DNA of 64,000 nt from Amoebophrya sp. A120. Lineage: Eukaryota; Protista; Dinoflagellata. Shown one piece after another: positions 5,420-63,436 of the stretch. Both the position numbers and the translations under genes were made by a program. The notes beneath the pieces are model-generated. The model was given only the letters and a program-made list of their open reading frames with translations. It had not been told where the DNA came from and did no database searches. The stretch's first letter is position 1, and each line of letters begins with the position of its first letter. The DNA lies in NCBI GenBank assembly GCA_905178155.1, contig CAJINV010000013.1, positions 2,236,281 to 2,300,280 of the forward strand, written 5' to 3'.

Positions 5420-8400
5420 ATGCTGGTCCGCTTTCGGTTTCGCCGCGCTTGCCTGGCTTCTGGCGCACTCTCGGTTTCGCAGCCTGTCGTTCAGGAAGTG
5501 CATGCAACGGACCTAGATGCGGGCTTGGAGGAGGGTGCATCCTCGGCGCACCCGGTGCACGCCGGCTCCGCGTTTCTGGAAAAATGCCGTGACTGCTACG
5601 AGGAAGCAAAGGCGTCCAATGCTGCGCCCGGGGGTCGAGTGCAGCTGCAAATGCAGCCGCAAATGCAGCGCGGTCGTATCGCGTGAAACGTTGTGGCGGG
5701 GGTCTGGAAATGAAAATATGCAGCACGTCTGAGTTTGCGAGGTAGCACCAGTGCCTTCCAAATAAAGGCACTTCTCTAGAGATATCTATACATAGCCTCT
5801 TATTGCACACACGGTCGGCCCAAACAAATCGAATAGCGGCTGACGAACTCTAGCTGGCACAAAATAAAGAGCTTGTTGCGTCCTTTCGTCATTGTGCCGC
5901 GGAATGAAAGCAAGAAAGGATTTGTCTTTCTCATAAGTACACCCGTGCAACCTTATTGGGAGACACTGTGCATGCCGTGATTTCACGGTCAGCACGACGA
6001 GGGCAGCATTGTGAAGCCTCGGACAGGAGCGCTCTTTTGTCATGCAAAATGAACAATGGTCTAATGCTGATAGTATGAAGTGCGGTCCTCGCGTTGGATC
6101 AGTCATGGGAACGAAGACTCTGCATTTCGCAGGACGCAGTCAAGTTGAGCGTTCACGACACCAAAAAACATGAAGAATATTTAGTGAACTTTTGCATACT
6201 ATGTCGTGTGCAGCTTTCCCTCTGGATGCCCATGCGAACACGCAGGCGCAAAATATGACTAAAAGCATCGAAATGGGTATGGGAGCTTGCCTCGAAGCCT
6301 AAACTTTTCTCGCTACTTTGTACTTGTTCCAAGTGTTGGCACGTTTTCTTGGCGTGTCAACATGGTCGCGGGCGTAGCTCGTCAGATAAGGCAGCACTTT
6401 TCATCCAGACCCACCACGCCGAGGCTTTTGTCCGTGAGGCAGAAAGCGGGACTGGAAACGCACCAGCGCCCGCAAGGCGGAGCGCCAAGCGGGATGACGG
6501 ACGCTCAAAAAGCCCAAAAACTGGAGCAGGTCCGGAATCAATGGGAACTCCAACGGACTCGCGACAACCAGGCCATTGTTGAGGAGTTGCAAGCGAAAAA
6601 CGTCCAAAGAGCTAAAGACGACAAAGCCTTGTCGGATCTCTGCGAATTTGTGAGGAACGCGCCGAAGGAGTCCGATTACGAACGGAACCTGGGCGATCTG
6701 GATGACCAAAGTATGGCTGGCCCGGTTGATGTCGTAATGTTCAGTAGTGCAAAAATTTGGACGCCGGGCATTCTAGAATATTTGGATGCCGGAGCAGCCG
6801 AGCGCGAGCACTTCCTGTTTTTTCGTTTTGGAACTGCTACTCGTGAGAAATTGCAGTTTTCGAAGCGCTCAACTGCCCTGGAATCGTTCGAAATTTGTAA
6901 AAGACGCACAATGTCTAAGGAGTTGCGTTTCTTTCCGTTAAGGCCTAGCAAATGCTCAGTACAGTTTCGCTGTAGACCTTGACATTATGACACTTGTGCG
7001 GGCCATAGCTTTCGAATCCGTCCGGGAGCGCGAAGCTGGCGACTACAAGAAACGCGTGGACGACCTCAAGGAGGCGTTGGATGATATCAAATCAATCAAA
7101 AAACACACCCAGCCCATTCTACCAAGTCGGCCCTTTGTGTGGTTTTTGTACGTGCCGCAATGCTTGCGCCTGCGTTGGATAGAAAGACAAAAACTCTTCC
7201 GCTTTCCGCTGCATTGATTCGCCACGAAAATCGCGGCTCCGCTCAGGTCGGATATTCGCTACGTTCCACGTGGTCTGCGTTGAGTGAGTGTGGCGCAGGA
7301 TCTTTCTCCACTCAGCAACTCTCCGGCCAGGCGACTTCACTTGAATTATTCGAATTTGTGACTCGTACGTCGCGGGCGCAAGTAGACCTGCTCGTGCGTA
7401 GCAGCGCGCGGGCGAGGGGGTGTTTTTTCAGTTCGATATACTAGATTCCGGGTGTAAGCGCGGACGACAAAACTGGGATCGAGACCAATTTCGCGTATCG
7501 AGGCTTCAGGTGGGAAACCGTCAAAGTGAAAACGAAAATACTTTCGCAGTGCGAAAGAGAAAAAGAGACAGTGCGCCACTCTAGATACAAGCGAGTCGAT
7601 TTCCCCACGCGATTGGTACTGATAGTCGATGCTCTCTCAAATACAAGGTGTCACCCCTTTCAGGAACCTCAGCCGCAGCCTTCATTGCCAGGCGCATACA
7701 ATTAGATAGAATTATTTTGTGGGGCTTCTGATTCGCATAGTTACTATCGGTATCGTATCGCAGCAGGGCGGCCTTTGTTTGCAGCCCCGTCTGGTGAGGG
7801 GGAAACGCGATGAAATTTTATTGATATTTGCATTCTGACAATTTCCCACGCGGCGCTTCCACAAGAACGAAGCCGGAAAGTTGCAGGACGAGATCACTGC
7901 AACCACGACCGGCCGGGTCCAAGCACTGCGAGACACGGCCATCTACCGCTACAAACAAAAGTGGGATGCTTTGAAGAAAGCGGCGGAGCGTTTCAAACAG
8001 TTGGAGAGCATTGCGAACACCAAGCAGCAGCATATGACACACAAAATAAAGCAAGCACACCCATACTAAATGACTAGCATGACTACAACTAATGACGCGG
8101 CGGCACTCGTAGTGACCTTTCTATTTCTAATTCAAATAGAAGTTTTTCAGTCAGCAGCGACTCTGCGGTGCGTTCTCTGTCGTTTTCTGCCATGCACTTT
8201 AGCAAGGGTTGCGTGCGCATCATTCTATTTCTGTGTAGTTCTTTTTGTTCAATTCATGTTCCGCGCAAACTGAATTATGTAAAACACGGCACTGCAAAAT
8301 ACTTGTCAAGCAGATTTTGGCGCCACAGATAACAAGGACCCTTTTTGGCCGCTCCTCGTCACAAATTTTCCTACGTTACGGGCCGCGGTTTGCATGAAAG

Positions 8401-8594
8401 AGACGCGCTTGGGTGGTGCGTCGGCAATGCAGACAAAAACGGGTGTGGGTGTAGTTTTCTGGAGGATAAAAGAGCAAGACTTGAAATTCAAAGAAATCCG
8501 AGACATGATTTCTCGTCAAAAAGTTGAAGCTGAAGTGGCAGCGGTCCAGAACGCGGCCCCCGCGGTGGGGGCCACCGGCTTTCTCGCGGCGTAG
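5420..8594 (+). CDS. Putative secreted coiled-coil protein, paralog 1 (multi-exon, structure partly unresolved)
   Basis: N-terminus MLVRFRFRRACLASG, AFLEKC motif, E/K/Q-rich helical exons (6400-6711, 7013-7084, 7850-8032, 8474-8594), ends GFLAA*. Resembles the gene at 11211. Confidence 0.6.
6712..7007. mobile_element. Degenerate introner (296 bp)
   Basis: tatggc...gccata termini; element plus 5 nt removal joins DLDDQ to ESVRERE in frame. Confidence 0.65.
7085..7438. mobile_element. Degenerate introner
   Basis: Left tatcaaat...aaaaaacacaccc versus right gggggtgttttttcagttcgata. Right end could be 7440. Confidence 0.5.
8033..8468. mobile_element. Degenerate introner (436 bp)
   Basis: TAT...ATA with cacaccc/gggtgtg inverted repeat; joins NTKQQ to QDLKFKE in frame. 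Confidence 0.5.
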
Positions 8595-8834
8595 TGCCGT
8601 GGTTGCGGCGGTAACGACATGACAAAAAAGGTATGACAGTGGACGTTTCGCCTGCATTGATTTGAAGGACACGTCTAGCGACAGAAACAAGTTGAGAAAT
8701 GTTGCTTCTGTACTGGATGCATCCACGCCCGCCAAGGCTGTAATGCCTTTTGGGCTTCGGCAACATGCTATGAGCATGCGAAACAAATACGGGGACAAAA
8801 GTGCTCATGACAAGTGTGGAGGGGATGTCCACTT

Positions 8835-10130
8835 TCATCGCAGGAAGAAATCGGGCAGGGCGTTGGCAGATCGTTATCGCATTGAAAAGCGCCCGCAAAC
8901 CCGAGGCCGGAAGCATTTGCATTTCAAAAGGTCTTTCCAGTAGAAACATTTACTTTTCTGTGTCTTCTAACAAGACAGATGCTGTATGCAGGAGACCGTA
9001 CGTGTCGATTTGTGTTGCACAAATGCCCATGCGTAAGCGCTGGCCTCGTCATTCCTGAACTGCCTGGTATGCCTGAACTGCCAGGCAAAGAGAGCCCTTG
9101 TGCTTTCATGCGAGACAAATGAGTCCATTCGGAAACTTTGCCGTGGAGACATTCCGCACTTCGGGGGCCGGGGCATTTTTCAGCGTGACAAAAGAGCTAT
9201 CTTTTTGTGCCGCAGCAGTCCTGTCTCAGTTTGAAGAAGTTGAAAAAATACCGCCACATCCTCTTTGGTCAAGTACGTTCTTGACTCATTCAAAAAATTG
9301 CCCAGCGTGGGTTTGGCCTGAGACGGCGTGTCGAGTTTTAACGTAACATCATCCAAGTTTGTTTTCCCATTAACGGTAATGAGACCGCTCAAGTCAACAT
9401 ACAAGAAAAATGGCACCGAGTTTGTTTCCCATTCAGTGCAGCCTGTGCTTACTCTTACTCATGTGGAACTTACGTCGGCAGGCTCCTTTTATTTCATTTA
9501 CTTCATCACTGACCATATAATTTCGAAAGTGAGAATTAAAATTTTTTTTGTGGCGGTCACCCTCGCGTCGTGTGTTTTCAGGCGAATAACGATCGGCAGG
9601 GGCAGCCACGGCAAAATTAATTGCGTAGTGCCCACAAGCTAGTAGTGAAAGACCGCTCACTTTGTTTTGTTGATTTTTACATTTCAGAACGTTTTTTGGT
9701 TTTTAATTTTACAACGTACATGCTGTCATTTTGGAGAACGGGTTATGCAACCACAAGTGATCTACTTTTCGTTTTTCCTTCTTAACAATCTCAAGCATTC
9801 AATCATTGAAAATGTAATCTCTCTGTAAGTAGCTTCCTTCATTTCCATCCCATTTGTATGTAGTAGTAAGGTCACGAGCGTTCCAATATACTTACTTCTT
9901 TCCGGTTCGACGAGCGCTCCGCAGGGTGGCCTTCCGCTTCCCTCGCGGCTCACAGACATCGAGGTCCACGTTTGCCGGTTTATTTATTTTTATCATGATG
10001 GCCGCCGAGACCGAGAGCAAGAAGACAAGGCCCTCTTCTTCGATGGTGTCGGAGGTGAGACTAACAAGTCTGACCTGATCGAAGTATTCGAACCTGCGCC
10101 CGTCACCACGAGGACAACTTCGAAGGACAC
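8835..10130 (-). CDS. Possible hypothetical protein (5' end unresolved)
   Basis: Protein-like minus-strand frames (RRFEYFDQVRLVSLTSDTIEEEG; LDDVTLKLDTP...RHKKIAL), a GTAAGT donor near 9895, and an in-frame end ANALPDFFLR* after removing 8875-9190 plus 5 nt. Confidence 0.3.
8875..9190. mobile_element. Introner family A, degenerate copy (316 bp)
   Basis: Left tatcgcattgaaaagcgccc and right ggggcatttttcagcgtgaca match family A TIR; interior agcatttg...ctttcc resembles the 51600 copy. Confidence 0.75.
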
Positions 10131-11210: not shown

Positions 11211-14200
11211 ATGCGGGTGGGCTCAGGCATTCGCCGCGCCTGCCTGACCTCCGGCGTCGTCGCGAGTGGCCAACTTTTTATCCAGAATGCGCAAGCCGCA
11301 GAACAAGCAGCTGCGGTTTTGAAAACCAACACCGCAAGAACCCGCCGCCCCGCAGATGCCTCGACGGGGGAGAGTACGGAAAAAGCGGCCGCGCCTTCGC
11401 AAACCACGACCCCATGCGAAGCGGGTTGCGCAGATTCTGCTCATGCGGATACCCTGTGCAAAGAGAGAGATCCCCCCACGGGGCAAGCCCGGGAGTGGCT
11501 TTCTTATTTTTTGAGCCATGCGAAGGTCTCTGCACGTGAAAATTTCTGCCACGCAATCCTTTATATTTATGGCTGTCTACTGGTGTTCGACTCTCGCGTG
11601 GTCACTGCGTGGGAAAGTCGCGCTCAGGTGTTGGCATGGACGAGCCGCTGCAAACTAGGGCGTCCAACAAAACGTGCTTTATTGTTATTTAGCATGTGCC
11701 GCGGGAGTGGGGGGTCTTTCTCGGAGGATACGATGTGACGAATCGTTCTTGGAGAGGTGTGACTGCGACAAGGGTGCAGGAGTTGATCAGCAGAAACTCA
11801 AAGAGGTACATTTTGACAAGGTAGTTGCTCCGTATATAAGTCCCTTACCATGCGCGGCAATCTAAGCCTCCTCCAAGGGTTGAAATATAATGGAGGGGTG
11901 CGCAGGTATGCATAGAATGAGAAGATCCCAGCACCAAAGAGCCAGCATGACAAAGCCGAGAAACCAAAAGAAACGCTGCTGATTGTATTGGCATTCAGGC
12001 CCTTGGAGGAGACTATCCGCTTTGCTCATCCAAAATTTGTAATCCTGTGTGGTACTTTCCATGCCGGAGTCCATCATATACACACAACAGGCGCAGGATA
12101 TGAATTGCACGTGCAAGGATGTCGAGGTTTTCTGGAAAAAGGGGCGCGAGTCATCTGCAATGCTCATCTCCCCGCGCTGTGCATCCTGAAATATGTGCGC
12201 ACCGCACGCATTCATTCGGAAAACAGCGCAACTCGCCTTCTGTAATGCCGAAGCGGAGGCAAGCTACTTTGTTACACATACACTATACGCAGATACTCGC
12301 GCGTTAGGAATCATCACGGCAACATAGCAAATTAAAAAATTCTTTGCCACTCCTGTATATGGAAAGGATATTTCTAAGGCTACATTTGTGTGTGCAAGTC
12401 ATTTTCTTGTTTGCGGCTTATCTCTTTGGTATGACAGGAAAAAGCACACTACTGTACAGACGGGCAGAAGGAATTGCTAGCGAATGTGCAGCCCCATCAG
12501 AACCCCATAGCTCTTTTCCAAAGTGCGTTGAGTTGTGTACACATTTGAAATTGGGCCTCGAGACTGGTGCAGGGACACTTGGCCGGTGGCGTTGACCGAC
12601 CTTGCTCGCTGATGATGATGATGATGATGATGATGATGCCTATCATAACAGCAAAAATTCAAAACCTGAAATTCCTTTGTGAGCAGTTGTGTAGTAGTAG
12701 TTGTAGCGGGGAGTTTAGATAAGAAAAAAACCCGGTTTCCGTTCTTGCTTTTCTTGTCTCTTTAATCACCCCACTTGAGAAAGTTAAAGAACGTCCTCGG
12801 AAGGCAGCCGTCCCCGGAGCCTAGTATGCTTTTGGTAGCGGCACGTCTGTACTGCGCGGTACTGCGCTGCCCAAACGCTAAACCCTAAACCCATCCTCCA
12901 CTCCGAGGCGCCCGGGGACGGCGCTTTGTGGTCCTAAGTCTTCGAGCCACAGAAGTTACTTTCTGCATGGGACGAGGGGGGAATCATTTTCGACACACGA
13001 TAACAGCATTGCAGATGGCGCCGCATTCCTTTTTTCCGGGCATGCCGCCATCGTTACTTTCGTTTCATAAACTAGATGCTGAGGCGGCAAGGGGAAGCAG
13101 CGACGGAGCGGTCGCAGAGAGCCAACGCGAGGGACGCGCAAATGAAACAGGCGTCCGCGGTATCCTGTGTGAAAGTGTCCCCACCCCATAGTTGTCCTAC
13201 AATCCTGCATGCGTAAAACTAAAATGTGTCTCATGCGGAGCCTGATGAGACGCATTTTCTAGCGCTATTTTGAAACTTGTGATGCTCGAATCAGCATTGG
13301 ATGCTAGAATTGTAATGCTGCTGCACTAGCTAATGACGGTTGCACCGCGAGCCCAAACTTGCCATGCGCATCCGCCAAAGCTTGGCGATTTGTCTTGCAG
13401 AGTTCCCGACTTGGCTGCGGAGTGGGGACGTCTTTGCACAGGATGCGCGGACATGATTGCTTCGATTCAGCGGGCCAGGGATGAGCTCAGGAGCGCGCAC
13501 GAAAATATGAACTAGAAAATGACGACCCCTCCACCGGATATCGGGCTGTTTTGCCAGTTGTGCAGCCCCCGATGTACAATAGCTCGTCTTCTCTTGCCTT
13601 GCAAGTGGGAGAGGACCAGAGGCCAGCGGTCGAATCCTCAGCGGGTTCGACGAGATGGCAATGCGTACAAGATTTGTGTGGCCGCTTCTCCGCTGCTGCG
13701 AGTTCGAATCATGTATAGAAGAGGGCTGCTCTCTTAGTGGCAATGGCAAAAAGATTGGCTCACGAGATTCTTCCTTGTCGGCGGAAAACGTGTTCGTTTT
13801 CCGGGGGAGGGGGTTGGGTTTCAACGCGATACAAGAATCCGACGCCGAATTCGATGCGAACATGAAAGACTTCGAGGCGAAATATGCGGCATCGCTTCAA
13901 CAAGAAGCCGCTGCACAGAACGAATTTTTCACAAACGGCATACAAGACTTGAAGAAATTTCGAAAAGATTACCGCGCAGATAGGAATGCGCAGAACCAAA
14001 AGCAGAAGGAGGCCAACATGGAACAACTGCGGAATATCAAATGTGAGAGCAAGGCCTCCGTCCCCGCAGCGACCTGCTATATATCCCTGTTGCGAGGGTT
14101 GCGTGCGTATTTTCGCCTTGCATGGACTGAAGGCTCAAAGAACTACTTCCACTCTGTGGCGATTTGTAAAAAGTCGTGGCGTGGAGCCTCGCTCTGCTCT

Positions 14201-16903: not shown

Positions 16904-19900
16904 ATGTCACCTGCTGAGCGTACTCCTGCAACCCAAGCCGGGCCACCGGTGCGCACGGTTCTTTGCTTGTACACGGGGGGCACGATTGGCATGCGTAAAA
17001 ATCCGGAAACCAATGTCGCGGAGCCGGTGCCGGGGTTTCTTTCGGACTGGGTGCAGAGTCTGCCTATGTTTCACGATGCGGAGTTTACGGCAGGCTTGGG
17101 ACGAAAATCTTCCAGCGCTTCTTCTTCGCCGGACCAGTCCAGCCCCTACCCTCGCAGCAAAAGCGTCTACAGGGCACCGGCCGTGAGAGGAACTACAATC
17201 GGGAGTACAACTTCTAGCAGTGTAGTTCTCGGTGATGGCAATCGGAAAAATGACCACGGCAGTGGTGCGGTACAGACTGCAACGAACGCCAGTGCAGCGA
17301 GGGAGATGAAGATGCAAAGATTTTTGGAGGAGCAGCAGAAAGTCGCTGGTGGCTCGACTTCGGAATCCCGAATAAATAAGGAACACGAAAAAGCTGCGCA
17401 CGACGACGAGCCCGAGCAGCGGCGCATGCCGCCTCGGGAGCTGATTTCGCCCTCGGTAAATTTTTTGTCGACAAACTTGGTCCATCCGCCTAGTGCTCCA
17501 CGGAGCCCGGGGAAGATGAAGTTGTCCTCTGCCGGAGACGAACAATTAGGGGACCGCGGTAATATATCTTCAATGCGACCACCGGGCGGGCAGCAGCCAC
17601 ACAGCTTGCCGTCCGCGGGTGGTGCTGCAGATCATGGCTCGCAGTTCGTTCCGCATTCTGCGTCGCACGAGCAGGCCAGCGAAAAGCGGCGCATTCACAC
17701 GACGTTGGTAGAGTACAACCCCCTGCTGGATAGCAGCAACTTCACGCACTTCATCTGGCAGGAGCTGGCGGAAGACATTTATGAAAACTACGAGCACTTC
17801 GACGGCTTCGTGATCCTGCACGGCACCGACACTATGGCCTTCACCGCAACCGCGTTAGCGTTCTTCTTCGCTATCAAAGGCAATAGGGAAACACGCGTCA
17901 CGCTGCTAGATAGTAACTATCGCTAAGTAGTAGACTGCTCACTACACGGAATCCTTGGAAAATTTCAGTCCTCGTAAAAACCAACTTGCGTTATTCTTGT
18001 GTCCACTTTTTCATCGCAGAAGGCAGTGGAGCGCCCGATGCCGCGCAGGACAATAATTGAGGACACCAATAATACGTATTCGCAGCGTGCTTTTGTCTTT
18101 GACAGAGGAAAGACTCAACAAGCCTGTGATCTTCACCGGGTCTCAGATCCCGATGGAGGAGCAAAGGAACGACGGCCTGATGAATTTCATCGGCGCACTG
18201 CAGCTCGCGGCCTTCTCGCGGATCGGCGAAGTCATGCTATGCGCTGGAAGTACGAGTCAACGTCTCAGCTTTTCAGTACAAATCCCTTGTGCGGTGGAAA
18301 TGCAGTGAATTAGAGTTAGCTTTCTGTGGTCCTACTGAAGCTTTCTATTTGATGCTGTTATGCAATGCAGCACTTGATTGCCAAGCCCGCACACGGCTGG
18401 AGGAGGTTGTTTCTTGTTCTTCGCTACAGAATTCTACTATGTACTTCCTGCTTGCGATGCATACCGCTTGTACTTTGACAATGTGCTTTACCGCGGGTGC
18501 CGCACGACCAAAGTTCACACGTCCTCCCCCCGGGCTTTTGACTCGCCAAACTTGCGGCCGCTGTGTATGGAAAGGAAAAGACGCCCCTCCCCATATCAAA
18601 ACGGAGTTTCTGATGCTGGATTTGTGTACACAAATCAGCTGTGTATTGCTGGAAGGCATTGCGGCCAGATACCCAGCCTAGGTAGAGGCGTTTGGCTCTA
18701 GTTGTTCAGCATGGCAAACGGCTCCGCTTTAGGCCCAACAGCATGACAAATCGCCTTGTCTTCTTGCAGCATAAATGTGATTTGTGACCTCAAATCAGCA
18801 GCACAAATCTTCGGAAACATGCCTTTTCAATATGGGGAGGGGGGATTTTTCTTTACGATGCTGTGTTTCGCGGGGATTCGGTACGCGTTCACGTCGGCTC
18901 TGCAGACCGGCGCGAAGAACAGAACGTTTGGGCTGACGTACGAAAATGGAAAAGTCGTTGCGGACCAACAAAAAAAGGAGGTGAACAGCACGACTTTATT
19001 CAGTGCGGACCAACAAAGCGAGGAGGGTGGTGCGAAGAGAAGGCGGACCTCGGGGCGCGTGAGTTCTGTGGCGGTGGTCGATCCGCCTCCTCCCGCTCCT
19101 TCTACCGATGGTACTGCAAGTAGTACGGGAGCTGCGCCGGCGCAAGAACCGCAAGTCGTATTGCCAACCGCCGGCGAAAATGCCTTCCATCAGCAAGACC
19201 TTCGCCTGCTGCCGCTGTTCGAGCCCCGGATCAGCATCCTGCGCATCTTCCCGGGCCTGTTCACGACCACGGCCGAGCTGATTCACGGACTGAAAGGACT
19301 GGTGCTGCAGACTTTTGGGGAGGGGAACGCGCCCAACAACCAGCCGTACCTGCTGAACACGCTGCGGGACGCCATCGAAAAGGAGCAGATCGTCGTGGTG
19401 AACGTGACCCAGTGCCTCAAGGGCGGCACGCCGGCCGGAAGTTACGCCACCGGGGCGGCGCTGACCAACATCGGGGTGTTGCCTGCCTACGATATGACGC
19501 CCGAGGCGGCGCTGGTGAAGTTGGGGTGGCTACTCGGCCTGTACCCGGAGCTCGAGGACCGGAAAAAGGATATGCAGTGGGCAAACCAGAACACAACGCG
19601 GGGATCGACTGCACTTAGACATTTATGGCAAAGTATGCATGTTTTTCAGGCGCGGAGTAGAGGCGTATGTGCATGAAGATGTGGCCACGTGTGTGAGGTA
19701 TGACCGATTTTCACCTGCTCGAGCGCTGCATCGGGCAAAGCAGATCTGGAAGTTTAGCAATTTTACTTTTTCGCCGGTTGTAGTCGTACTCGCAGTTCCT
19801 GTTCGTGTTGTCCTTTCCATATGCGTCAAGCAGCTCTTTCAGGAAGATTTGCGTGGAGAACTCACGCAGGTCTGGCAAACGAATGGACACCGAAACAGCC

Positions 19901-50700: not shown

Positions 50701-53700
50701 AGAACTTGAGTATGTTGATCGAAGCAAACCTCCAAGCAGAGCAGGACATCAAGAAGAAAGGCGGCAATGAAGACGAAGTGCAAACTGCGTTGTTAGAGGA
50801 GAAAGATTGCACAGTGGAATTCGAGGATGAGACGCTGATCGAAACTAGCGGTAAAACAAGCATGTTGCGACAAGCAGCGGAAGTGGAAGGCAGCAAACCA
50901 GTAAAATACGTCGCTAGTTGTACAACAGGTCTTGAGCAAACTGTTGAATCTAGTCCTACCACTCCCCCCGTAGCCGAGCTTGCGACCATCGTCGGCACGG
51001 GGTCGCCGTTCTGTTGGCAGGAATGCTACCTGGCCGTTGGCGTGGGCAACTGGGTGTCGATAGAGAGCAAAGGAGGGTTAGGAGGAACTACAAGTTCCAA
51101 TACTATCACGTCCGGCGCGCCTCCTGCCGTCGCATCTTCTGCCAGTGGTTCAAAAACCTCGACGAGCTCGGCCGCGACTGTGAAAACGACTGTTGCGCCA
51201 AGGGCCTCGAAAACGGTGATTCCGAACCTGGAGGGGAACGTCTGCAGTCTGGACGGGTTGGGAAAGAAAAACTGGCTGGCGGTTCTGGCCGAAGAGGCCG
51301 TGTACTTGTACAAGATCGAACTGGATGAAAATAACGCGGACAGAGAAATAGAACAGAGACAGAGACTCGAAGCTGCGGAGGACACGACGGATTGCAATCT
51401 CAACTGTCCACACAAACTTCTCGCGGCAATTCCGCTATCCGAGTTCGTGGCAGAGGGCGCGGAAGAGCAGGAGGAGAAAAAGACAGCAAAATCTTTATCC
51501 CCGTCCGCCTCCGGCGGATTTTTTGTCAAGTTCCTCGAGGACGGGGAGCACCTGATCGTCACCACAAATTCCGTTGCACCTCCAAAAGACGGTAACAAAT
51601 ATTACAATGAAAAATGCCCCCACCCCCAACCTGGCAGCATTTGTATTGCAAACCTTTCCAATCGAAACATTCCCCGTCTTGCATATCTCAACATCACAGA
51701 TTTTCCATGCTGAATAGCTCAAATTTGTGTTGCGAAGGAGCCCATCAGCAGCCGGATCTGTTATGCACAAGACACCTTGCGCACCTATATTCTGCATCAG
51801 AAAGGCTCGCAATCCTTTCGCGCAAGACAAAAAGCTTTCATTTGGAAACTTTGCATGACAAACTTCTGCAAATTCCGGGGTGGGGGCATTTATCATTGTA
51901 ATAACAAAAATAGCGGTTTCACGACAACCAGCAGCATCCACGTGATCCGGATTATTCACGACACCATTGAAAACCAATATTGTCTCGAAGTCATCTGCGC
52001 CACAACCTTGATGAACGAAACGACAAAAATCCTGGATTTGCAAGTCGCGCCGTGGAATGAGTTTATCACGTTGACCGCGTACGGCTTGACTTTTTGGCGG
52101 TTGGATTCCGTCACGAAGTCCCTGCAGTTTCAAGAGACCAACAAGCCCGACTGGTTGGTGCAGCAACAAGTTGGCAGTCTACAAGGGAAGAATAAGGAAA
52201 AAGATCCTGCTTCCAGCAAGACGGCGCACCAGGAAAAAATAGTTGGAAACCAGAACAACAGCAAGACCACAGATCACGTGTACACCTGCATGACGTTCGT
52301 GCAGATTTCGCAGGACGTCTCCCGGGTCTTGGTGGGGACCAGTCGAGGCACACTTTTGACGTTTGATTTCGAGGAGAACCTGCCGATCAACGAGATTAAA
52401 TCGCTTCCGAACAACTACAACAGCGACAAAATCACGAACGTGCAAGCTTATCAAATGCAAAAATGTCTGGGTCTGGAAGAATCTAACTTGTCATGCTAAA
52501 TCTGAATCATTCAAGAATCTGTGTTGCATGATTACCAAAAGCTGGCCACTTTTGACCTAATCGAGAGGGAGTTTCTCATGCAGAATAGGCATGATAGAAC
52601 TCTCACAGAATCTGTCATGCTATGTCCTACATGCCAGACCTCATGGGTCATGGAAAACCTGCATGACAAGTCTGCATTCTTCCAGACCCAGACATTTTTA
52701 CATCTGATAAAGCTCCGGCGTATCCAATTCTGCTCTGTGCCATCGGGGCGACGATTTGCAAGTATGTGATTTACGAGGCGGGGAACAAGTTGCTGTCGAT
52801 AAACAGCGGGGCCTCCTCTGGCGGAGCGGGCGCGACTGCTAAAGCTGCTGACAACTGTTACAATTCTAGCGGTATGAACATCAAATCGGCGTCGAAAGCG
52901 AGCACCGGCTCTAGTTCCTCCACCGCTATGGCGCTGGTCGAGAAGCCGATTGCGCTGGATTCCGATCTGAAATCCTGTGCAGGCTTTTCCACAGAGCGGG
53001 GCAACGGGATTTTCGCGACCAATGCGAGCTTGTGGTACGTGAACTGGCGAACCAACGTGAAAATGCGGCTGCACAGTTTTCACACGAAGGTTCATCTTGG
53101 GGGAGGTTCTAGTAATTCGGAACAAGATCAACACGCTGCAGCAACCGCCTTTTCCTGTCAGTCCTTCGACGTATTGGAGTGCAGCAGTTCTTCCAAGCAT
53201 GACGGCAACAAAATCGCCACGTGTGGCGCAGTGGACGGGCTCGTAAGGCTGTGGAGCTGCAGCAGCAGCAATAACTCAAGTGAACAATCGGGAAAAAATG
53301 GTTCAAAAACCAGTACGCTATCCAGCGCAGCGACCAACGCCATCACAGCGACGAGTCCGCAGGTGCTGACCAGCCTCGCGCAATTTTCCGGCGTTTCCCC
53401 GTGCTTGTCTTTGACGTTTTTGTCTTCCCGCGTGTTATTCTGCGGTTTTGAGGACGGCTGCGTCCGGCTGTTTGATCTGGAAAATTTGACATCCATCGGT
53501 CGTGTGGAGGTGGAGGAGAGCGATGCGATCGTCGTAGTGAAGGCCTTGAGCCCACAGGCGGCCATTGCGGCGACCAGAAACGGGAAAGTCGTGCAGATCA
53601 TGGTATAAGGCCTTTACAACTACTCTGGTGAGAGAAAATGGTGTTTCTTCATGTATAAGTTTTGATGTTCAACGTTTGAGAGGACTTGTGAGACTCTACA

Positions 53701-54736
53701 CAGGCAAGGGCAGCGCGACTCGAGACCGAGATGTTGTTGAGTACTATGTTTTTTGAATTGCAAGAGAAAATCCCTCGCCCAATGGAAAACCCCAGATCCG
53801 GCTTTCCTCCACGCGCGAGGTGATCGACGCCCGGCGGGCCGAGTTGAAGCCAGCAAACAACGAGAAAAACGTGACCAGTGCCATCGACGTAAACCACAAC
53901 ACCGATCAATTTCTCATCGCGTTTAGCAACAGTGAGGTCTACATTTGGCAGACGGAGAGGAAGAGGAAACCCGTACTGAAAGACGTTTGGGTGATGCCAA
54001 AGTCAGCAGAAATGATGAACACGACAACAAGCAGTACTATGGCGAAGATGAATCTGGTGCAGGCGTGCTTTATTCCGCAGCACAACTCCTCCGCGATTCC
54101 CACCGCGTCCAACAAAGAAGATTTGATCGCGGCGTCCAGTAACAAGATTTTCTACGTTTACGATCTCAGCAACAAGAAAGTGCTACATCGACTGGAGCTA
54201 GACGCCGAGATCTACCGGGTTTGCTGCTTTCCGAAACTTTTTGATCAGACACCAGCCGCCGGGATACCGCGTACGGAAATTTTATATTTGTTGTGATTTA
54301 TGTTTATTTTGTCATGCTCATCATGCAGCTTTTATCGCTTTCCTTTTGCACCATCCGGGGGTCCATCCGGAGTAACATACTTAGCCATAATCGCCGATAT
54401 GTACGCCGTGGGCAAGTTATCCATTGGAAGAAGGAAAGAAAACCGAACCTATCAGGCACCAACAGAACCAGTCGCGTGTCCGCTTCTCACGACAAGTCGA
54501 AGCAAAACTCGGTGATGGTGCTGACGAAAGACAACGTTTTGGGGGAAATCTACTGGCCGGAGCAATCTACAGCTCACGCTCCTAGCAACGCGTTAGAGAA
54601 CCCTGCGCTGTATCGCGAGCGCGTCCCCTTCGCAGGCCCCGGCACCAGCGTGAATGGAAACACGGATTTGAAGTTTTTGCACGACAGCAGGCTGGTGGTC
54701 AAAACGGAGAGCGGGCTGTGTGTTTGGGATCTGTAG
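44764..54736 (+). CDS. WDR90: WD repeat protein 90 (centriolar POC16), CFAP20-like N-terminal domain, about 12 exons
   Basis: WQHPFVSIF, KQGD, ANNYVQVP, SLNLTGEYLYV, LLPDPLL, SCGKENIRFWRVK-like LVTCGKENIRFWRVK, PLDF, RSH and WD40 repeats. GT-AG introns 45607-45798, 47060-47230, 48603-48734, 54271-54455; seven non-canonical introns. Confidence 0.9.
47421..47724. mobile_element. Introner family A (304 bp), TSD GTTTG
   Basis: TIR tattaca(g/a)tgaaaaatgcccc; perfect TSD. Confidence 0.97.
47886..48137. mobile_element. Introner family B (252 bp), TSD TTGCA
   Basis: Long imperfect TIR with repeated gttacaa unit; removal gives FDVLHRSHAG. Confidence 0.95.
48180..48500. mobile_element. Introner family A (321 bp), TSD GCGTG
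   Basis: Right TIR ggggcatttttcattgtgata; removal gives DACVSHLFEEICTV. Confidence 0.95.
51600..51903. mobile_element. Introner family A (304 bp), TSD ACAAA
   Basis: TIR tattacaatgaaaaatgccccc; interior is the reverse complement homolog of 47421-47724. Confidence 0.97.
52449..52709. mobile_element. Introner family C (261 bp), TSD AAGCT
   Basis: TIR tatca(a/g)atg(c/t)aaaaatgtctgggtctggaagaat; removal gives NVQAPAYPILL. Confidence 0.97.
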
Positions 54737-54878
54737 TAAAGCAGACGACAGGGTTAGTTTGCGGCCCTGAAAAGTAGGTCTATCAGCAAAGCTAGCAGAT
54801 GAAAAATTCAAATGCAGTAAAGGCATTTTTTTTTATTTTTCCGATTTCTATCATGATTTACATTTAGATTTTCTTTGT

Positions 54879-56083: not shown

Positions 56084-59000
56084 ATGTCGAGCTGGCTCCA
56101 GAGTCTTTGGTCCGGGTCCTCAGGGGGTAGCCCCGGCGGCACCGCTAGCAGCAAGTCACCACGTGCCACCGGCACGTCCCCACGAAACAGCCCCAACGAC
56201 GGTTCTTTGATATTACCAACGGGGGCAGACGGTAATAAACCCGTGGGGCAGCAGCTGCCGACCGGGTAATTATGATTTTTGGGGTTTGATGTTGTGCAAT
56301 ACGCGATTTGCTTTTGCATGAGAAATTGAAGACATTGTTGATCATCTGGATCCCGATTCTGCAAAACAAAACCAGCGCTTCCCAGGACAACCTCGGCGGC
56401 GCTACAACGGTTGCTGCAGTATCCACCCCTCAGCCGGCCTCGTCTCCCACGAACCAAAACCCCACGGCGAATTTTGTCCGCACGTTTTTCCGCTTCGCCT
56501 GGGACCAGGCAAACGACGTGGAGATCCGCGTGGTCGGTTCCTGTCCGCAGCTCGGCGACTGGCAATGGCAGAAGGGCGCGATCCTGCAAACTTCGTTTGA
56601 ATACTTTCCCAGCTGGATTTCCAAGGACCCGGTGTATTTGCCCCTCGGCGAAAAAATCGAGTACCAGTACGTGGTCATAGTCAGAAATAACCTGGGAGAA
56701 CAAAGTCAAAGAGGGTCCAGCGGGAACCTGTTACCCTCCGCTTCTAGCAATAGCCGGTTGCAAATCTCTAAAGCGAGCTCTTCCTCCAGACTGGATAGGG
56801 AAAACAAGCAAGAGCAGGACAATGTCGTCTCGGTCAAGTGGGTGACTTCTCCCGGAACAGTAAGGCTGCCTAGTTCTACCGGTGGTGGAGTAGTAGAGAG
56901 CACGTTCAATTATGCAAATCAAAATCAACAGCAAAGCTCCTCTATGGACTACAAAAGCGGTGCTGGTGTGCAAAGGAACAACAATCAGAAACAACTGAGC
57001 AAAGATTCCACAATCACGATCGACAACGGGGCGAAGGAGGGGGAGTGTTTGCAGCTGGTCCCCACGGGAAATGAAATGACGGCGGAGGACGACGGGGGTC
57101 TGTTCCGGAAATTCAGCGGAAAAACGGCGGAGAATTTGAACACCATCTCCGGAAACACGATGACGGACACGACCCTAAACTACCAGCAGAATTCGTCCTC
57201 CCCCGAGAAGGGCGGGCAGTTCGGGCAGGGGAGCGACCGGGAATTGGATTTGCTGGATTCGAGGATATTGGAGTTGGAAGAGGAAGGGAAGTGGAGCAGC
57301 AAGGGGACCGTGTTGTTTTTAACCTTCTTGCTCCCGGTGCAAGTGGTCCGCACGGCGGACGACAAGTGGGCGGTGACGCCGATGAAGGACCACTTTTTAA
57401 CGTCGTTGAAGCAAGCGAGGAAGCAACACAAAGCCAGTAAAAACAAAACCGGGATGATGAACCACAAAAGTGGTCAACATCAACAGCAGCAGAACAGCAG
57501 TGACGATTTGCAGATTTTATGCGTCGGGTGGCCGGGGGTGCATGTGGAGTCGGAGTACGACAAAAGGCTGATTTCGGAGCTCTTACTCGCGCACGACTGC
57601 ATCCCGGTCTTTCCCAGTCCCTACGATTTTGAGAATTTTGTGCAGTTCGCGTTCGGCCTGTTGTCCCCGATTTTTCACGACGTCATGCAGCACATGCTGT
57701 TTTTCGACGCAAAGATGACCAGTTTCGACGAGGAACAGTGGGCGAGCTACCAGCGGGTCAACTTCTGCTACGCCGACGTCGCGATTCGGCACAGTCACGA
57801 CTCGGATTACTTTTGGGTCCACGACTACCATCTGATGGTGGTGCCGCAATACCTAACCCGGAAGCTGCGGATGGCAAACATCGGCTTCTTCCTGCACTGC
57901 CCGTGGCCCTCCTTTGACATTTTCAAGGCGATTCCGGTCCGGGACGATTTGCTCCGGGCGCTGCTGTGTGCGGACCTGATCGGGTAAGTAGTTGAGAAGT
58001 TATAATTTTCTGGAGATAATTTTTTTTTGCTGCGAGTTATCTGATCAGATTTACATTTGGATTTTATGTTGTCATTCGGCGCATTACATGTACAGGTTTC
58101 AGTTCTACGATCACGCGCGAAAATTCTTCGTTTCCACCAAGCGCCTACTCGGCCTCGACTGGACCTTCCTCCCCAACGGACAGCTTTCCCTGGACTACAG
58201 CGGACGCACGGTGTGCATCAAAGTGTCCCACGTCTGCATCTCGCTCACCCAAGTCGCCTCCGCCGCGGAAAGGTTCCGAACAGCCATGAATGCCGACCGC
58301 AACGAGCTGGCTGCGTTTGCGAAAACGATCCGGGAAAGTAATTTGGACGAAAGCAACCGGAGCTCGTCTGTTCCCAAAAGCAGCGGAGGAGGCGGTGGAA
58401 CAACGACAACAAGCATTCCAAATTTCGCCGACCAAACGCCTTTGATCACGCAACGAAGCATCTCCGAGGCGACGGGCCGGAACACCCCGAGCAGCGGTGG
58501 AATATTGAACAACCAAAAGACCATAGCGATGAGTTTCAATCGGAAAAGAAGTTCCTACGCGTCCAGTACCTCCGGCTTTTCCAGCAGCAATTTAGACGGC
58601 ACAGGAGGTGGTACTTCGGGTGGAAACGGCTCGCCGCAGATGAAGCGAGTGCCACTGCTGTTCGAGCTGGAGAAGCAGTTTGCGGGGAAGATCATCTTCG
58701 CGGGTTTAGACCGGCTAGAATCACTCAGCGGGATGATGCTGAAGGTGAACGCGTGGAAATCTTTCCTTTCCGAGCACAAACAGTGGCGGAACAAAGTGAT
58801 TTTGGTCCAATGTGCGTACCCGTCGGAACACCGTTTCAGGATGGGCATGAACAACAAAATGCGCACTAGTAGTACAGAGACGGAGAACGGGGTAGTTCTC
58901 GGCGGGGGCAGCAGTGGAACTGAAAATACGCATAGTGGCACGACCAAGGAGAAAGAACAGACCGATATTAAATCATCACCAGCGAAGAAGTTCGGCGAGG

Positions 59001-62000
59001 CTGCAAGTAGTGGTCCAGGAGCTGCTACACCAAATAGACAAGAACAGCACCAACAAGCGGGATCAAACACTACAACCTCACCGAACAACAGTAAAGCCGC
59101 CTCACCTGGTGCCGAAGCAGATGTCCCCTCTCCACAGCAGCAGCAAACGCTCAGCAAGTCGACGCTGGAACAGGATTTAGAGGGTTTAGTCCTGGAAGTG
59201 AACGAGCTCTTCGGGCAGCACATCGTGCTGTTACTTTCCAGCGAGGAAATGGAGATGGAGGAGAAATTTGCCCTCTTCCAGTCCGCCCACGTTCTGATTA
59301 ACACCACCGTGAAAGACGGACTGAACGTCAACCCGCTCGAGTTTCTCGCCTGCCACGCGTCCATCGGCGACCAGAAAGCGCCCATGATTCTCTCGGAGTT
59401 CGCCGGCGTTTCCCAGATCCTCCAGGGCGCGCTGATTGTGAACCCGTGGAACACGCCCGAAATCGTGAACGCAATTGTCCGGTGTTGCCGCATGTCCGAG
59501 GAGGAAAAAGAGTACCGGTTCGCGAAGGATTTGGCCTACGTTGCGGAAAAGAACCCGGTGACCTGGTTGGAATCGTTTTTAACGGACTTGTATCAAGTGC
59601 CAACATTATCTGGGTCTGGAAGACTGGGGAAGTTTGTCATGCAAATTGTACATGGCGATGGCCCGCTATGCCTGTGATGCATGCTCTAGCATCACAGCTT
59701 TAGCGGAAGCTTGTTGATGCAAATAGACTCTCCTGCATGAGAAGTGCCCGCTCCGGTTGGCAACAATCTGAGTACCTTTTACTGCTCATGTTGCAAGACA
59801 GGCTTTTGTACGCTTGAAAGTTAGCAACACAAATCCCATTCTTTCCAGACCGAGACATCTTTGCACTTGATAACTTAAAAGCAAGTCGGAAAAAAGACGA
59901 CAAAAACTACGTCGCGGTCGGGTTCGGCGCGAACTTCTATCAAATGTAAAAATGTCTGGGTCTGGAAGAATGCAACTTGTCATGCTGTTTTTGGATTCTA
60001 AAAAAATTAGTGTTGCATGACCAGCAAGAAAGGTCCAGTTTGTGCTACACGGAGAGGGCACTTCTCATGCGGAAGGCGCATCAGGAGGCCCTCTAAAAGT
60101 CTGTGATGCTAGGTCATGCATTACAGGCATCAGGGGTCATGAGAAATATGCATGACAAGGCTGCATTCTTCCAGACCCAGACATTTATACATTTGATAAC
60201 TTCCGCATTCTCTCGATGGACAGCACCTTTGCCAAATTGATGACCGACGACGTGATCCACGCGTACCGAAACGCGCGTGGTTGCCGGGTCTTCTTCCTCG
60301 ACAACGAGGGGACGCTGGCGCCGAACTTCGCCAGTCGGTACGCCAGAGCCAAGGACCACCTCCGGTTGAAGGACGTGTCCGAGCTGCAGTCCTTTGGCGT
60401 CGCGCCGAGTCCAAACGTCTTGCACTGTCTGAACGAGCTGATGCAGGACCCGCGGAACATTGTCGTCGTCATCTCCGGGCGGACGAGAAAGCAGCTGTCC
60501 GAGTGGTTCTCCCCGGTCTTCAACAACATTGGCCTCGCGGCCGAGCACGGGTTCTGCTACCGGATTCCCTCGGTCTTGGGCGACGAGTGGTACCAGGAGC
60601 AGGTGGAGAGCGACATGAGCTGGAAAAACGTGGCGTTCGAACTGATGCGGGAGTACACGGCGCGGACGCAGGGGAGCTGGATGGAGAACAAGGGGTCGGC
60701 GCTCGTCTGGCAGTATCGGGACGCGGACCCGGAATTCGGGGACCTGCAGGCCAAGGAGTTGGGGCAGCACTTGCGGGAATTTTTGGCCAACTCTTCCGTG
60801 ATGTCGAACGCGCAGACGGGGACGAACCAGCCAGGCAGCAGCGGCCAGAAGATTTTGCACAGTTCCGGCGTGGAAAACCAGTTTGGGTTGACGGATACCG
60901 GGTTGACGGGGGGCATATCACCGATGCGAATTTGTCGAAAATTCTGGAAAAAACTTGTGATGCTAAATTGTGGATAATGGAAGCTAGCACGTCCAAGTGC
61001 ACCCAAGCGTGGATGACAAGTGCTTGAAACGCTTTGGCATCCTTCCAGGCGTAGTAGTACGCATTATCACAAAGAGTATAGGAACAGGAAGCAGCGGCGT
61101 TTTTTTTGGCGATACAGATTTTCCAGTAAAACTCAATGTAAAACAAGCCTTGCACCAAAATCGACTTTCATTCCAGACCCAGACATGTTTGCGTTTGATA
61201 AGGCAGTATGCTGCACAAAGTGGAAGTGACCAACGGGAAGGGGTACGTGGAGTGCCGGGTAGCGGGGATCAACAAGGGCGCAGCCGTGTCGAAAATTCTG
61301 CAGAAGATATCCTTGATCCGCGGAGACTATCCAGTGCAGAAGTAAATTACTCGTATGACGGATTAATTGCGGGTATGCACGACACGCCTACTAGTTGTTT
61401 CTCACCTGAATCAGCAAAAGAAGTGGCTGTGTTTTTCCTACTTGTGAAAAAGAAAAACTTTGGATTGATTCCATATCCACTAGTGCGATACTTTTGCAAT
61501 GCATACAAACCCGGATTTCATCCTGTGCATGGGCGATGATCGGTCGGACGATATCCTGAGTAAAAACGTACCCACACCAGAGTCTCGATGGGGATTTTGC
61601 AACACAAGCCTAGGAGTTTTGTGAGTCACGCATGACAAGTTGCACTATGCAGTGTAGTGCAGGTTAGCAAGTGCAGCCGCATCACAGATTCATCTGCTCA
61701 TCCTGTTCACAGCATCACAAATTCCAAAACACGATTGGAAATGGCTCTCATGGGGATGCGCATTACAAGTCTTCCTCTCTTTGCAAATCTGCATTACAAC
61801 TCTGGCGTGGGTACGTTTTTACTCAGGATAGACGAAGACATGTTTGAAGTGGTGAACCAGCTATCCCTAGCGGAAGGGGACGACGGGGGCGGAAGCGTCA
61901 TGTACTCACTTTACTGTTTTATTTTTACTTCTGCTACTAACAGAAGCTTTTGGATGATTCAAATTTTTCAATATTTTTTTATACAACTTTGTCAACATCA

Positions 62001-63436
62001 TGCGAGATGATGAAGAACAACATGAAAGACCACGGCTGTCATTCGACTCCCGCCTGCATTAGACTCGTGCCAATCTATTCCTGCGAAAGCTACCATTGCT
62101 TTTCAACTTCCACAGGGACGGCGCCAAGTCCACTTCGGAGTCCAACCTGCAGTTCTTTGCCGGTGGGATGCGCTCTATCGGTGGGTTGCAGCGCGGGTCT
62201 CGGGGGAGCGCGTCTTCGTCCCGGATGAACCTGCTGGGGGGGATTCAGCCCGTGAGTAACCTCGGCGTGATATCCTGAGCGAAAACGTCCTCACCCCGTA
62301 GTCAAGATGGGGAATCTGCTAGACAAATGAGCCAGCTTCGGGCGTTGCGCATGACAAGTTTGGCCTCGTAGTGTAATCTTGTTTAATAGCTAGTTCATCA
62401 GCATCACAGACCTAGCCTATTGCGCTCATTAGAGCATCACAAATTCCAAAACACGACCGGAAAACACTTCTCAGGGGACTACGCACGAGAAACATTTTCA
62501 GCATGCAGATTTGCATGACAGCTATGGGGTGGGGACGTTTTTACATAGGATACGTGAACACCTTCGCGGGCGACGGGTCGGATTTGAAACAGCAGTACAA
62601 CTATTACAATGAAAAATGCCTCCTCCCCATATCAAAACGGAAATTTGTGATGCAGATTTGTGGCCACAAATCAGCTTTGTCATGCTAGAAGGGAAAAGAT
62701 GCGGACTCTAGTGCTGGTTGGCGTGGGAAAGCCTTGCATCTTCAGCATGACAGGGGGCAGCTGGAAGTGGGAAACAGCATGACAAATTGCCTGCAAACGA
62801 GGCCACAGCTGCGTCTCTTGGCCTTCTAGCATTACAAGTCGATTTGTGTACTCAAATACAGCATCACAAATTTCGTTTTCGATATGGGGAGGGAGGATTT
62901 TTCCTTTTGATAACAACGTGAACAACATCATGTCCTGCACCATAGGGCAGAAACCGTCGAAGGCCAAATACTATCTCCACGACGTTGAGGAGGTGACGGA
63001 GTTGCTCGAAGCGCTGAAAAACTCGGTCCGCAGCTGCCTGGAAGGGGACGAAACGAAATTGCAGCAAGTGTACAAATCCACTCCCGCGAAGCTGCAAGGG
63101 ACGTCGAATAGTAATGCAAAGTACAACAACACGCCCGGGGGCGGGGCGCGCGGCGGGCTGTACGGCGCGCCACCCTTTCAACAGGGAGACAATCTCAACC
63201 AGCAACCCGAAGCAGGCGACGTGCAGCGGCAGGGAAGCAAAATAAAAACACCACTAGATCAGTTGAGTTTCGGCGGGCACCAGCGAGGGATGAGGCCGCA
63301 AGACAGAGGACCAGAGTCGGAGCAAAGCGAGGACGGGGGGACATCGGTAGTGTCATCGGTGTCTGATCATGACTACGTGGTCGGTAGTTCCTTCCAGCAA
63401 CAGGGAAGCAGTGCCGGGTACAGGAGCGGAAGGTAA
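56084..63436 (+). CDS. TPS: CBM20 + trehalose-6-phosphate synthase (GT20) + HAD phosphatase fusion, 11 exons
   Basis: CBM20 VVGSCPQLGDW; GT20 WVHDYHL, IGFFLHCPWPS, ADLIGFQ, DGLN, ILSEFAG, VNPWN; TPP FLDNEGTL, VISGR, LAAEHG, NKG, GDDRSDEDMF, KPSKAKYYL. GT-AG introns 56266-56375, 57984-58095, 61902-62115; seven introners. Confidence 0.95.
59591..59872. mobile_element. Introner family C-like (282 bp), TSD ACTT(G/A)
   Basis: tatcaagtgc / gcacttgata; removal gives TDLKASRKK. Confidence 0.93.
59938..60198. mobile_element. Introner family C (261 bp), TSD ACTTC
   Basis: Near-perfect TIR of more than 30 bp; removal gives GFGANFRILSM. Confidence 0.97.
60916..61200. mobile_element. Introner family C-like (285 bp), TSD (G/A)GGCA
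   Basis: Right TIR ttccagacccagacat...tttgata; removal gives GGSMLHKVEVTNGKGYVE. Confidence 0.9.
61328..61505. mobile_element. Degenerate introner (178 bp)
   Basis: tatccagtgcagaagta / tacttttgcaatgcata; removal gives RGDPDFILCMGDD. Confidence 0.85.
61552..61830. mobile_element. Introner family D (279 bp), TSD GACGA
   Basis: 32-bp TIR with one mismatch; splits the GDDRSD-EDMF motif, which is restored on removal. Confidence 0.98.
62271..62552. mobile_element. Introner family D (282 bp), TSD CGTGA
   Basis: tatcct...aaaacgtcctcacccc / ggggtggggacgtttt...aggata; frame restored. Confidence 0.95.
62602..62912. mobile_element. Introner family A (311 bp), TSD ACAAC
   Basis: Left TIR tattacaatgaaaaatgcc; reverse orientation relative to 48180 and 18566; removal gives QYNVNNIMSCTIGQKPS. 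Confidence 0.96.

What the first reader, a model, noticed from the sequence alone, without database searches (positions are those of the whole stretch)
6712..62912. A second intron class built from TIR transposons: NNNNN-TAT...ATA-NNNNN
Seen: roughly 30 insertions in coding exons, at least five TIR families with different sequences, almost all starting TAT and ending ATA. Young copies have exact 5-bp TSDs (GTTTG, TTGCA, GCGTG, ACAAA, AAGCT, ACTTC, GACGA, CGTGA, ACAAC, CGCGG, CTGTG). In-frame removal generally cannot use GT-AG, yet element plus 5 nt restores conserved motifs such as GDDRSDEDMF. They coexist with GT-AG introns in the same genes. Known: non-canonical introners with inverted and direct repeats are reported in Amoebophrya, and their splicing mechanism is unresolved as far as I know. 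The single end rule shared across families is the point to follow up.
Basis: partly seen in the sequence, partly recalled or inferred. Interest (0 to 1): 0.8.

Follow-up and report, generated by a model that had tools for sequence, protein, structure and literature searches.

The report
Amoebophrya transposon introns, fixed polarised cut
These are the already published hairpin-ended transposon introns of the marine parasite Amoebophrya A120; transcript contigs lack each element plus five bases, one cut position fits every usable junction, and the two ends tolerate different mutations, which likely means a relaxed spliceosome reads them.

Summary
The window is Amoebophrya sp. A120: the spliced TPS gene equals its annotated protein. 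Farhat et al. 2021 already report the TAT-starting inverted repeats and 5-bp direct repeats. I list 27 candidates; all 11 quoted TSDs are exact, two of them flanking TAT...ATG. Spliced contigs lack element+5 nt at 11 of 13 elements laid, while DNA contigs keep them. Decayed TSDs leave one register that fits all junctions: intron = N.TAT...ATA.NNNN (-1/+4). In 292 gene-oriented copies, mostly from related contigs, the first T never varies but the last A varies 11 times (p=0.001); a cruder first test showed nothing. TSD composition is unbiased. Best reading: non-autonomous TIR transposons removed by a spliceosome that keeps donor +2U/+3A but ignores G and AG (about 0.6); a hairpin-guided nuclease/ligase remains open (0.25). 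No transposase was found. This scan reported the same system and register on other DNA of this genome (44 matching notes, 8 seen).

The parts
6712..7007 (+). Old candidate element, short TIR (TATGGC/GCCATA); could also be a GT-AG intron
   Evidence: sequence; junction ambiguous, read by eye, no transcript evidence
8632..8839 (+). Old candidate element TAT..ATC; the -1/+4 register gives GT-AG ends
   Evidence: host gene not established
8875..9190 (+). Old candidate element TAT..ACA
   Evidence: weak
13161..13445 (+). Element TAT..ATG, exact TSD CGCGG
   Evidence: junction open in one frame
16904..19920 (+). Host gene: asparaginase, annotated A120 protein P0122, four elements
17872..18104 (+). 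Element TAT..ACA, TSD decayed (1/5); annotated protein allows cut register 3 or 4 only
18238..18463 (+). Element TAT..ATA, TSD decayed (1/5); annotated protein needs register 4 or more
18566..18860 (+). Element TAT..ATG, exact TSD CTGTG; skip 300 = element+5
19571..19821 (+). Element TAT..ATA, TSD decayed (1/5); register 3 or 4
27707..27988 (+). Element TAT..ATA, TSD 4/5
   Evidence: junction open, no transcript evidence
28162..28422 (+). Element TAT..ATA, TSD 3/5
   Evidence: no transcript evidence
32978..33231 (+). Element TAT..ATA, TSD 0/5
   Evidence: part of a 751-aa open frame
34096..34348 (+). Element TAT..ATA, TSD 3/5; -1/+4 cut gives the junction residue of the A25 orthologue
   Evidence: P0124; other registers worked out by hand
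34841..35048 (+). Element TAT..ATA, TSD 2/5
35501..35717 (+). Element TAT..ATA, TSD 2/5
44764..54738 (+). Host gene: WD40-like protein (label from motifs read by eye), 2476 aa after removing 6 elements and 5 GT-AG introns
47421..47724 (+). Element, exact TSD GTTTG
   Evidence: joint not among the rows shown
47886..48137 (+). Element, exact TSD TTGCA
   Evidence: joint not among the rows shown
48180..48500 (+). Element, exact TSD GCGTG
   Evidence: loose end in X3 is upstream exon joined to one TSD copy
49146..49342 (+). Element TAT..ATT, TSD decayed (1/5); unambiguous joint 49144>49347 = -1/+4
   Evidence: (table 8)
51600..51903 (+). Element, exact TSD ACAAA; skip 309
52449..52709 (+). Element, exact TSD AAGCT; skip 266
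56084..63437 (+). Host gene: trehalose-6-phosphate synthase/phosphatase; spliced product identical to A120 protein P0001 (1667 aa)
59591..59872 (+). Element, TSD 4/5; skip 287; register 4 or less
59938..60198 (+). Element, exact TSD ACTTC; skip 266
60916..61200 (+). Element, TSD 4/5; skip 290
61328..61505 (+). Element, TSD 3/5; skip 183; register 3 or more
61552..61830 (+). Element, exact TSD GACGA, splits the GDDRSDEDMF motif; skip 284
62271..62552 (+). Element, exact TSD CGTGA; skip 287
62602..62912 (+). Element, exact TSD ACAAC; skip 316

Best explanation
These are the introner elements of Amoebophrya sp. A120: small non-coding TIR elements with 5-bp target duplications that stay in the DNA, are absent (element plus 5 nt) from spliced transcript contigs, and are likely cut by the cell's own spliceosome with relaxed rules at a fixed register, one base before TAT and four bases after ATA. 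Shown: anatomy, 5-bp TSD, removal length, DNA retention, either orientation in the gene, unconstrained TSD sequence. Inferred: one unidentified DDE transposase mobilises all families (shared ends and a shared inward-facing subterminal motif); N-U-A-Y is read as a donor site (intron +2 U, +3 A); the 3' cut is set by distance from the element end, perhaps from the A at -7 acting as branch point, with the hairpin bringing the ends together. Because the ends are symmetric, an insertion in either orientation brings its own signals and removal restores the exon exactly.
For: Removal of element+5 at 11 of 13 elements laid, in contigs that also skip GT-AG introns, and at 4 of 4 asparaginase junctions in the annotated protein. 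All 9 predominant A120 non-canonical motifs in Farhat Table S4 have T at +2. Ten of 10 canonical donors checked in the window are GTA, 8 of them GTAY. In 292 gene-oriented copies the 5' first T varies 0 times and the 3' last A 11 times (p=0.001; loci only 0 vs 9 of 281, p=0.004), while position 3 goes the other way, 8 vs 3. With TSDs masked and an ORF required: 1 vs 9 and 13 vs 3 of 228. A transposase or plain pairing would treat both arms alike. Farhat et al. report a nearly complete spliceosome without U1.
Against: No lariat, circle or knockdown data. The first asymmetry test (local strand call, no register filter, 301 copies) gave 8 vs 7 at position 1. The test was prompted by three window cases, three positions were examined, and searches use the same loci. 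No enrichment of G at +1 or AG at the end: AG at TSD 3-4 in 20 of 251 against 14 for the antisense equivalent; no drift toward GT-AG in 51 decayed TSDs. G.U versus A.C mismatches in the stems are 208:221, so RNA pairing is not shown to be selected. A polarised code would also fit a dedicated non-spliceosomal enzyme, as in Euglena. The transcript contigs come from two samples of one study and their RNA status is the tool's guess.
Confidence: 0.6

Rival explanations
1. A separate, non-spliceosomal pathway (hairpin-guided endonuclease plus ligase, like the unknown machinery of euglenid nonconventional introns) cuts at fixed distances from the base of the TIR stem.
For: No requirement for G at +1 or AG at the end; minimum-energy folds pair the two ends in 8 of 8 elements folded (no shuffle control); U1 snRNA not found in A120; Euglena uses a paired motif with fixed spacers (abstract).
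Against: The constrained bases fall on donor positions +2/+3 and tolerate the same T/C at +4 as the genome's canonical donors; no G.U over A.C excess; removal persists with only 9 to 11 of 20 terminal pairs (60916, 49146).
Confidence: 0.25
2. Removal is RNA-catalysed or maturase-assisted, group II-like, using the A at -7 as branch point.
For: The A at -7 varies less than the last A (3 vs 11 of 292); group II branch points lie 7-8 nt from the 3' end (recalled).
Against: Elements are 150-320 nt with unrelated interiors (45 clusters among 292); no conserved catalytic core was seen, and no Rfam search was run.
Confidence: 0.04
3. The elements are excised from somatic DNA (IES-like) and transcripts come from excised templates.
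For: TIR plus TSD anatomy; removal of element+TSD is what precise excision gives. Contigs drop rare variants, so low-level excision is not excluded.
Against: DNA run X5 contigs at depth 41-56 run from unique flanks into the elements, and no exon-exon joint is among the 15 of 314 joints shown; end constraints follow transcription direction.
Confidence: 0.03
4. The clean junctions are reverse-transcriptase template-switching artefacts across hairpins with direct repeats.
For: Exact TSDs and strong hairpins are the known setting for such artefacts (recalled); all transcript evidence here is presumably cDNA-based.
Against: Joints are equally exact where the repeat has decayed (49146, 1/5; 61328, 3/5); the genes are open and match orthologues only after removal.
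Confidence: 0.03

Closest known systems
Introner elements / non-canonical introns of Amoebophrya sp. A120 (Farhat et al. 2021, PMC7789003; Gozashti et al. 2025, PMC12130899)
   Same: Same organism; IRs starting TAT + 7 nt + at least 3 A; 3-5-nt direct repeats (5 bp in Fig. S19 legend); many families; mixed with GT-AG introns; no transposase inside.
   Different: The paper calls the splice position relative to the hairpin variable or unknown (Fig. 3 legend). The text I read does not state the single -1/+4 register, the strict 5-bp TSD or the transcription-polarised end constraints. I could not see the figures (Fig. 3, S19-S25), which may show part of this.
Non-canonical introns of Fritillaria borealis (via review PMC11282704, section 6; primary paper not read)
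   Same: MITE-derived introns with TIRs and TSDs, removed by an adapted U2 spliceosome.
   Different: Preferred AG-AC/AG-AT ends and an exonic TAC target; here the first and last intron bases are free.
Nonconventional introns of euglenids (PMC12501133 abstract; review PMC11282704)
   Same: Paired ends at fixed spacers from the cut sites, no GT-AG, likely MITE origin, unknown machinery.
   Different: Signature N3CDG...CHGN5-6|R, excised as circles; here N.TAT...ATA.N4, excised form unknown.
Ginger2/Tdd transposons (PMC2836005, passages)
   Same: TIRs; TDD-4 and TDD-5 make 5-bp TSDs; Gozashti et al. describe an integrase-like A120 introner family (family 38).
   Different: Ginger termini are TGTNR, not TAT; no enzyme was found here, and Gozashti et al. 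say family 38 lacks Ginger termini and TSDs.

Membership tests
Amoebophrya A120 introner elements | Occurs in the Amoebophrya sp. A120 genome | tested here: met
   Spliced TPS identical to A120 protein P0001; asparaginase exon 100% to P0122
Amoebophrya A120 introner elements | Terminal IRs starting TAT, 7 variable nt, then an A run | tested here: met
   Arm composition in 292 copies, A at positions 11-14 in 246-280; definition
Amoebophrya A120 introner elements | 3-5-nt direct repeats at the borders | tested here: met
   242 of 328 TAT..ATA registers have an exact 5-nt repeat
Amoebophrya A120 introner elements | Spliced out with non-GT-AG ends | tested here: met
   11 of 13 elements laid
Amoebophrya A120 introner elements | Repeated in families | tested here: met
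   45 clusters among 292 copies; window pairs 68-86% identical
MITE / non-autonomous TIR DNA transposon | Short, TIRs, fixed TSD, no coding capacity | tested here: met
   Median 261 nt; longest stop-free stretch 59-150 aa in six longer copies
MITE / non-autonomous TIR DNA transposon | Cognate autonomous element with the same TIRs | tested here: inconclusive
   Six long TIR pairs in about 630 kb of loci: three inspected were separate copies or host gene between ends, the others had no long ORF; whole genome not available
U2 spliceosomal intron | GT...AG ends | tested here: not met
   At the -1/+4 register 1 of 26 correctly registered window candidates has GT-AG
U2 spliceosomal intron | Donor +2 U (+3 A) constrained on the transcribed strand | tested here: met
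   0 vs 11 of 292, 1 vs 9 of 228; null in the cruder
U2 spliceosomal intron | Lariat intermediate and snRNP dependence | not testable with these tools
   Needs lariat sequencing or knockdown
Euglenid-type nonconventional intron | N3CDG / CHGN5-6|R signature | tested here: not met
   Ends are N.TAT and ATA.N4; the first exonic base (TSD position 5) takes all four letters
Ginger transposons | TGTNR termini and integrase-like transposase | tested here: not met
   Termini TAT..ATA in 397 of 452; no transposase found

The most novel reading that the evidence does not exclude
Amoebophrya runs a second, non-spliceosomal splicing pathway that reads a transposon's end code on the RNA (U at +2, A at -7, fixed -1/+4 cut), so that any insertion of these TIR families into an exon is removed without trace.
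Probability: 0.25. Interest if true: 0.85.

Novelty: already known. Interest (0 to 1): 0.4.

Why it matters
How Amoebophrya removes tens of thousands of non-GT-AG introns is an open question (Farhat et al. 2021). The elements themselves are not new. The fixed -1/+4 register and the strand-polarised constraints turn the question into specific predictions: a donor-like N-U-A-Y, a possible branch A at -7, and free first and last bases. A spliceosome that ignores both terminal G residues, or a separate excision enzyme, would each interest splicing specialists and would explain how a transposon can fill exons at little cost.

Tried and rejected
No whole genome is held for the window and the related contigs could not be extended, so the statistics rest on 133 loci picked by one TIR pattern. 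No run is on record as RNA holder. AG|G protosplice preference in TSDs: not seen. Drift of decayed TSDs toward GT-AG: not seen. G.U versus A.C skew in stems: none. First end-asymmetry test: null. Autonomous copies: six long TIR pairs found; three inspected were chance pairings of separate copies around host genes, and the 631- and 972-nt copies have no long ORF. The two viral-contig matches lack a partner TIR; L134 lies in a helicase-like frame (label by eye) and was rejected as chance. The A120 protein for the 32.7-35.9 kb gene was not returned, only the A25 orthologue. Three literature searches listed no paper after 2021 whose title or abstract start points to a resolved mechanism; subscription papers (Roy et al. 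2023, Henriet et al. 2019) were not read, and PMC12787238 was seen only as a listing.
Full report
Identity. An exon of the last gene hit an Amoebophrya sp. A120 protein at 100%. Splicing the gene at the transcript-supported joints gave a 1667-aa protein identical to that record. An asparaginase exon likewise hit an A120 protein at 100%. The window is therefore A120 DNA.

Observation. Nine TAT...ATA elements with exact 5-nt flanking repeats and strong terminal pairing were found among 21 such pairs. I list 27 candidates (the 6712 entry was entered two bases off there and is read). A relaxed scan gave 27 hits, some mis-registered, against 0, 1 and 0 in shuffles. A TIR pattern retrieved 133 loci from contigs of one assembly (JACKZZ01, organism not given), whose element copies are up to 96% identical to window copies. 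An unbiased scan of these and the window examined 8331 hairpin registers. Of 260 with an exact 5-nt direct repeat, 242 were TAT..ATA; of 328 TAT..ATA registers, 242 had exact 5-nt repeats and 6, 1 and 0 had 3-, 4- and 6-nt repeats. A profile that ignores the terminal three bases found 452 elements, 397 TAT..ATA, 338 with exact TSD, median 261 nt.

RNA versus DNA. Contigs of runs X1-X4 (two samples, one study; RNA status is the tool's guess, but they skip six GT-AG introns in the table shown) lack element+5 nt at nine elements in the joint table. They also lack it at 49146 by the piece table and at 48180 by a loose end: 11 of the 13 elements in 47000-63500. Five joints were not displayed; 47421 and 47886 are supported only by the 2476-aa open frame. 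Contigs of X5, at depth 41-56 in unique DNA, run from flanks into the elements, and none of the 15 of 314 joints shown joins exon to exon. X5 may be the assembly's own source and contigs hide rare variants. Raw RNA runs X8 and X9 were uninformative.

Register. Exact TSDs leave the cut ambiguous, decayed ones do not. Counting TSD bases kept from the left copy: 49146 gives exactly 4, 59591 at most 4, 61328 at least 3, 60916 at least 1. The annotated asparaginase allows 3-4 at 17872, 4 or more at 18238, and 3-4 at 19571 (this rests on the annotation). At 34096 a -1/+4 cut gives the GGIFAKK of the A25 orthologue, whereas registers 3 and 5 would change the F (by hand). Register 4 is the only value allowed by all, so the intron is N.TAT...ATA.NNNN. 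All nine predominant A120 non-canonical motifs in Farhat Table S4 have T as second base, as this predicts. Exact joints at decayed repeats also argue against template switching.

Polarity. Gene strand was called from coding scores without using element ends: 320 of 449 elements were oriented, and the 292 with TSD 4/5 or better were used (neighbour agreement 218 of 224, partly circular). The first T of the upstream arm varied in 0 copies, the last A of the downstream arm in 11 (p=0.001; 0 vs 9 of 281 without the window, p=0.004). Position 3 varied 8 times upstream (all T to C) and 3 times downstream (Fisher p=0.001 for the crossing). A second method on the same loci, with TSDs masked and an ORF across the junction required, gave 1 vs 9 and 13 vs 3 among 228 of 459 (p=0.02 each; the single upstream case looks mis-registered). 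An earlier, cruder test gave 8 vs 7 among 301. The p values are uncorrected for three positions, and three window cases prompted the test. The upstream pattern N-U-A-Y matches the window's canonical donors: 10 of 10 GTA, 8 GTAY; seven are transcript-supported and three were read by eye. Against a near-normal spliceosome: TSDs take all bases at all positions, AG at positions 3-4 is not enriched (20 vs 14 of 251), decayed TSDs do not drift to GT-AG, and stems show no G.U excess (208:221).

Mobility. Families sit in both orientations in genes. An inward-facing motif TGT(C/G)ATGC occurs in 268 of 292 copies across clusters, at 9.45 per kb inside elements against 0.84 outside, 9 hits in shuffled elements and none in 12.4 kb of coding sequence. 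It is likely a shared transposase-binding site (inference), and is mostly absent from old copies that are still removed (0 hits at 49146 and 61328), so splicing does not need it. No autonomous copy was found.

Mechanism. I favour a spliceosome that has kept donor +2 U/+3 A, lost its need for the terminal G residues, and places the 3' cut by distance from the element end (about 0.6). A dedicated hairpin-guided nuclease/ligase remains possible (0.25). DNA excision, self-splicing and cDNA artefact are unlikely.

What is known. Farhat et al. 2021 (PMC7789003: abstract, sections 10, 11, 12 and 16, passages, supplement passages including Table S4 rows) describe these elements, including the TAT start, 3-5-nt repeats, missing U1 and no A120 transposase. 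They call the splice position variable or unknown. Figures were not visible and may bear on the register. Gozashti et al. 2025 (PMC12130899: passages; 21 of 58 A120 rows of one dataset; two supplementary files not searched) class most A120 families seen as TIR DNA of unknown superfamily. Comparators came from PMC11282704 (section 6, passages), PMC12501133 (abstract) and PMC2836005 (passages). Earlier notes of this scan on other pieces of the genome report the same system and register; they are not independent support, and my register note predates them.

Verdict. Real, already known as a class; the register and the polarity are useful refinements that make an open mechanism testable. Interest 0.4.

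Noticed in passing
window 19984-20706; L043 1155-1919: A different intergenic repeat, 78% identical over 552 bp to a stretch of a related contig; not a TAT element; no ORF in it stood out.
   Followed up: partly
window 42250-44500: GC-rich (60-72%) intergenic block without a convincing ORF, perhaps a decayed mobile element.
   Followed up: partly
window 2253-3342: 10-bp G-rich tandem repeat (about 38 units) running into a 705-N gap, followed by an AT-rich stretch.
   Followed up: no
window 16670-16722 and 38209-38259: Near-perfect 51-53-bp palindromes, the second inside an apparent intron.
   Followed up: no
window 23504-24488: Ribosomal protein L23/uL14-like gene (label by eye) with two GT-AG introns and no TAT element, in line with the reported depletion in translation genes.
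   Followed up: no
L043 6001-6972; L028 3862-4492: Longer copies (972 and 631 bp) with good TIRs and exact TSD; the L043 copy has unrelated non-coding DNA replacing its right part.
   Followed up: partly
window 61590 and 62328 (run X9): About 120 raw RNA reads of another sample with the same species label match a short piece of one element family at 90-95%, suggesting a related element in another strain.
   Followed up: no
window 4624-5074 and 10350-10793; 9960-10300 and 15940-16200: Decayed duplicated stretches in the left part of the window; the first pair by blastn, the second by eye, each of the second pair with a TAT..ATA-like hairpin in AT-rich flanks (15960-16176).
   Followed up: no
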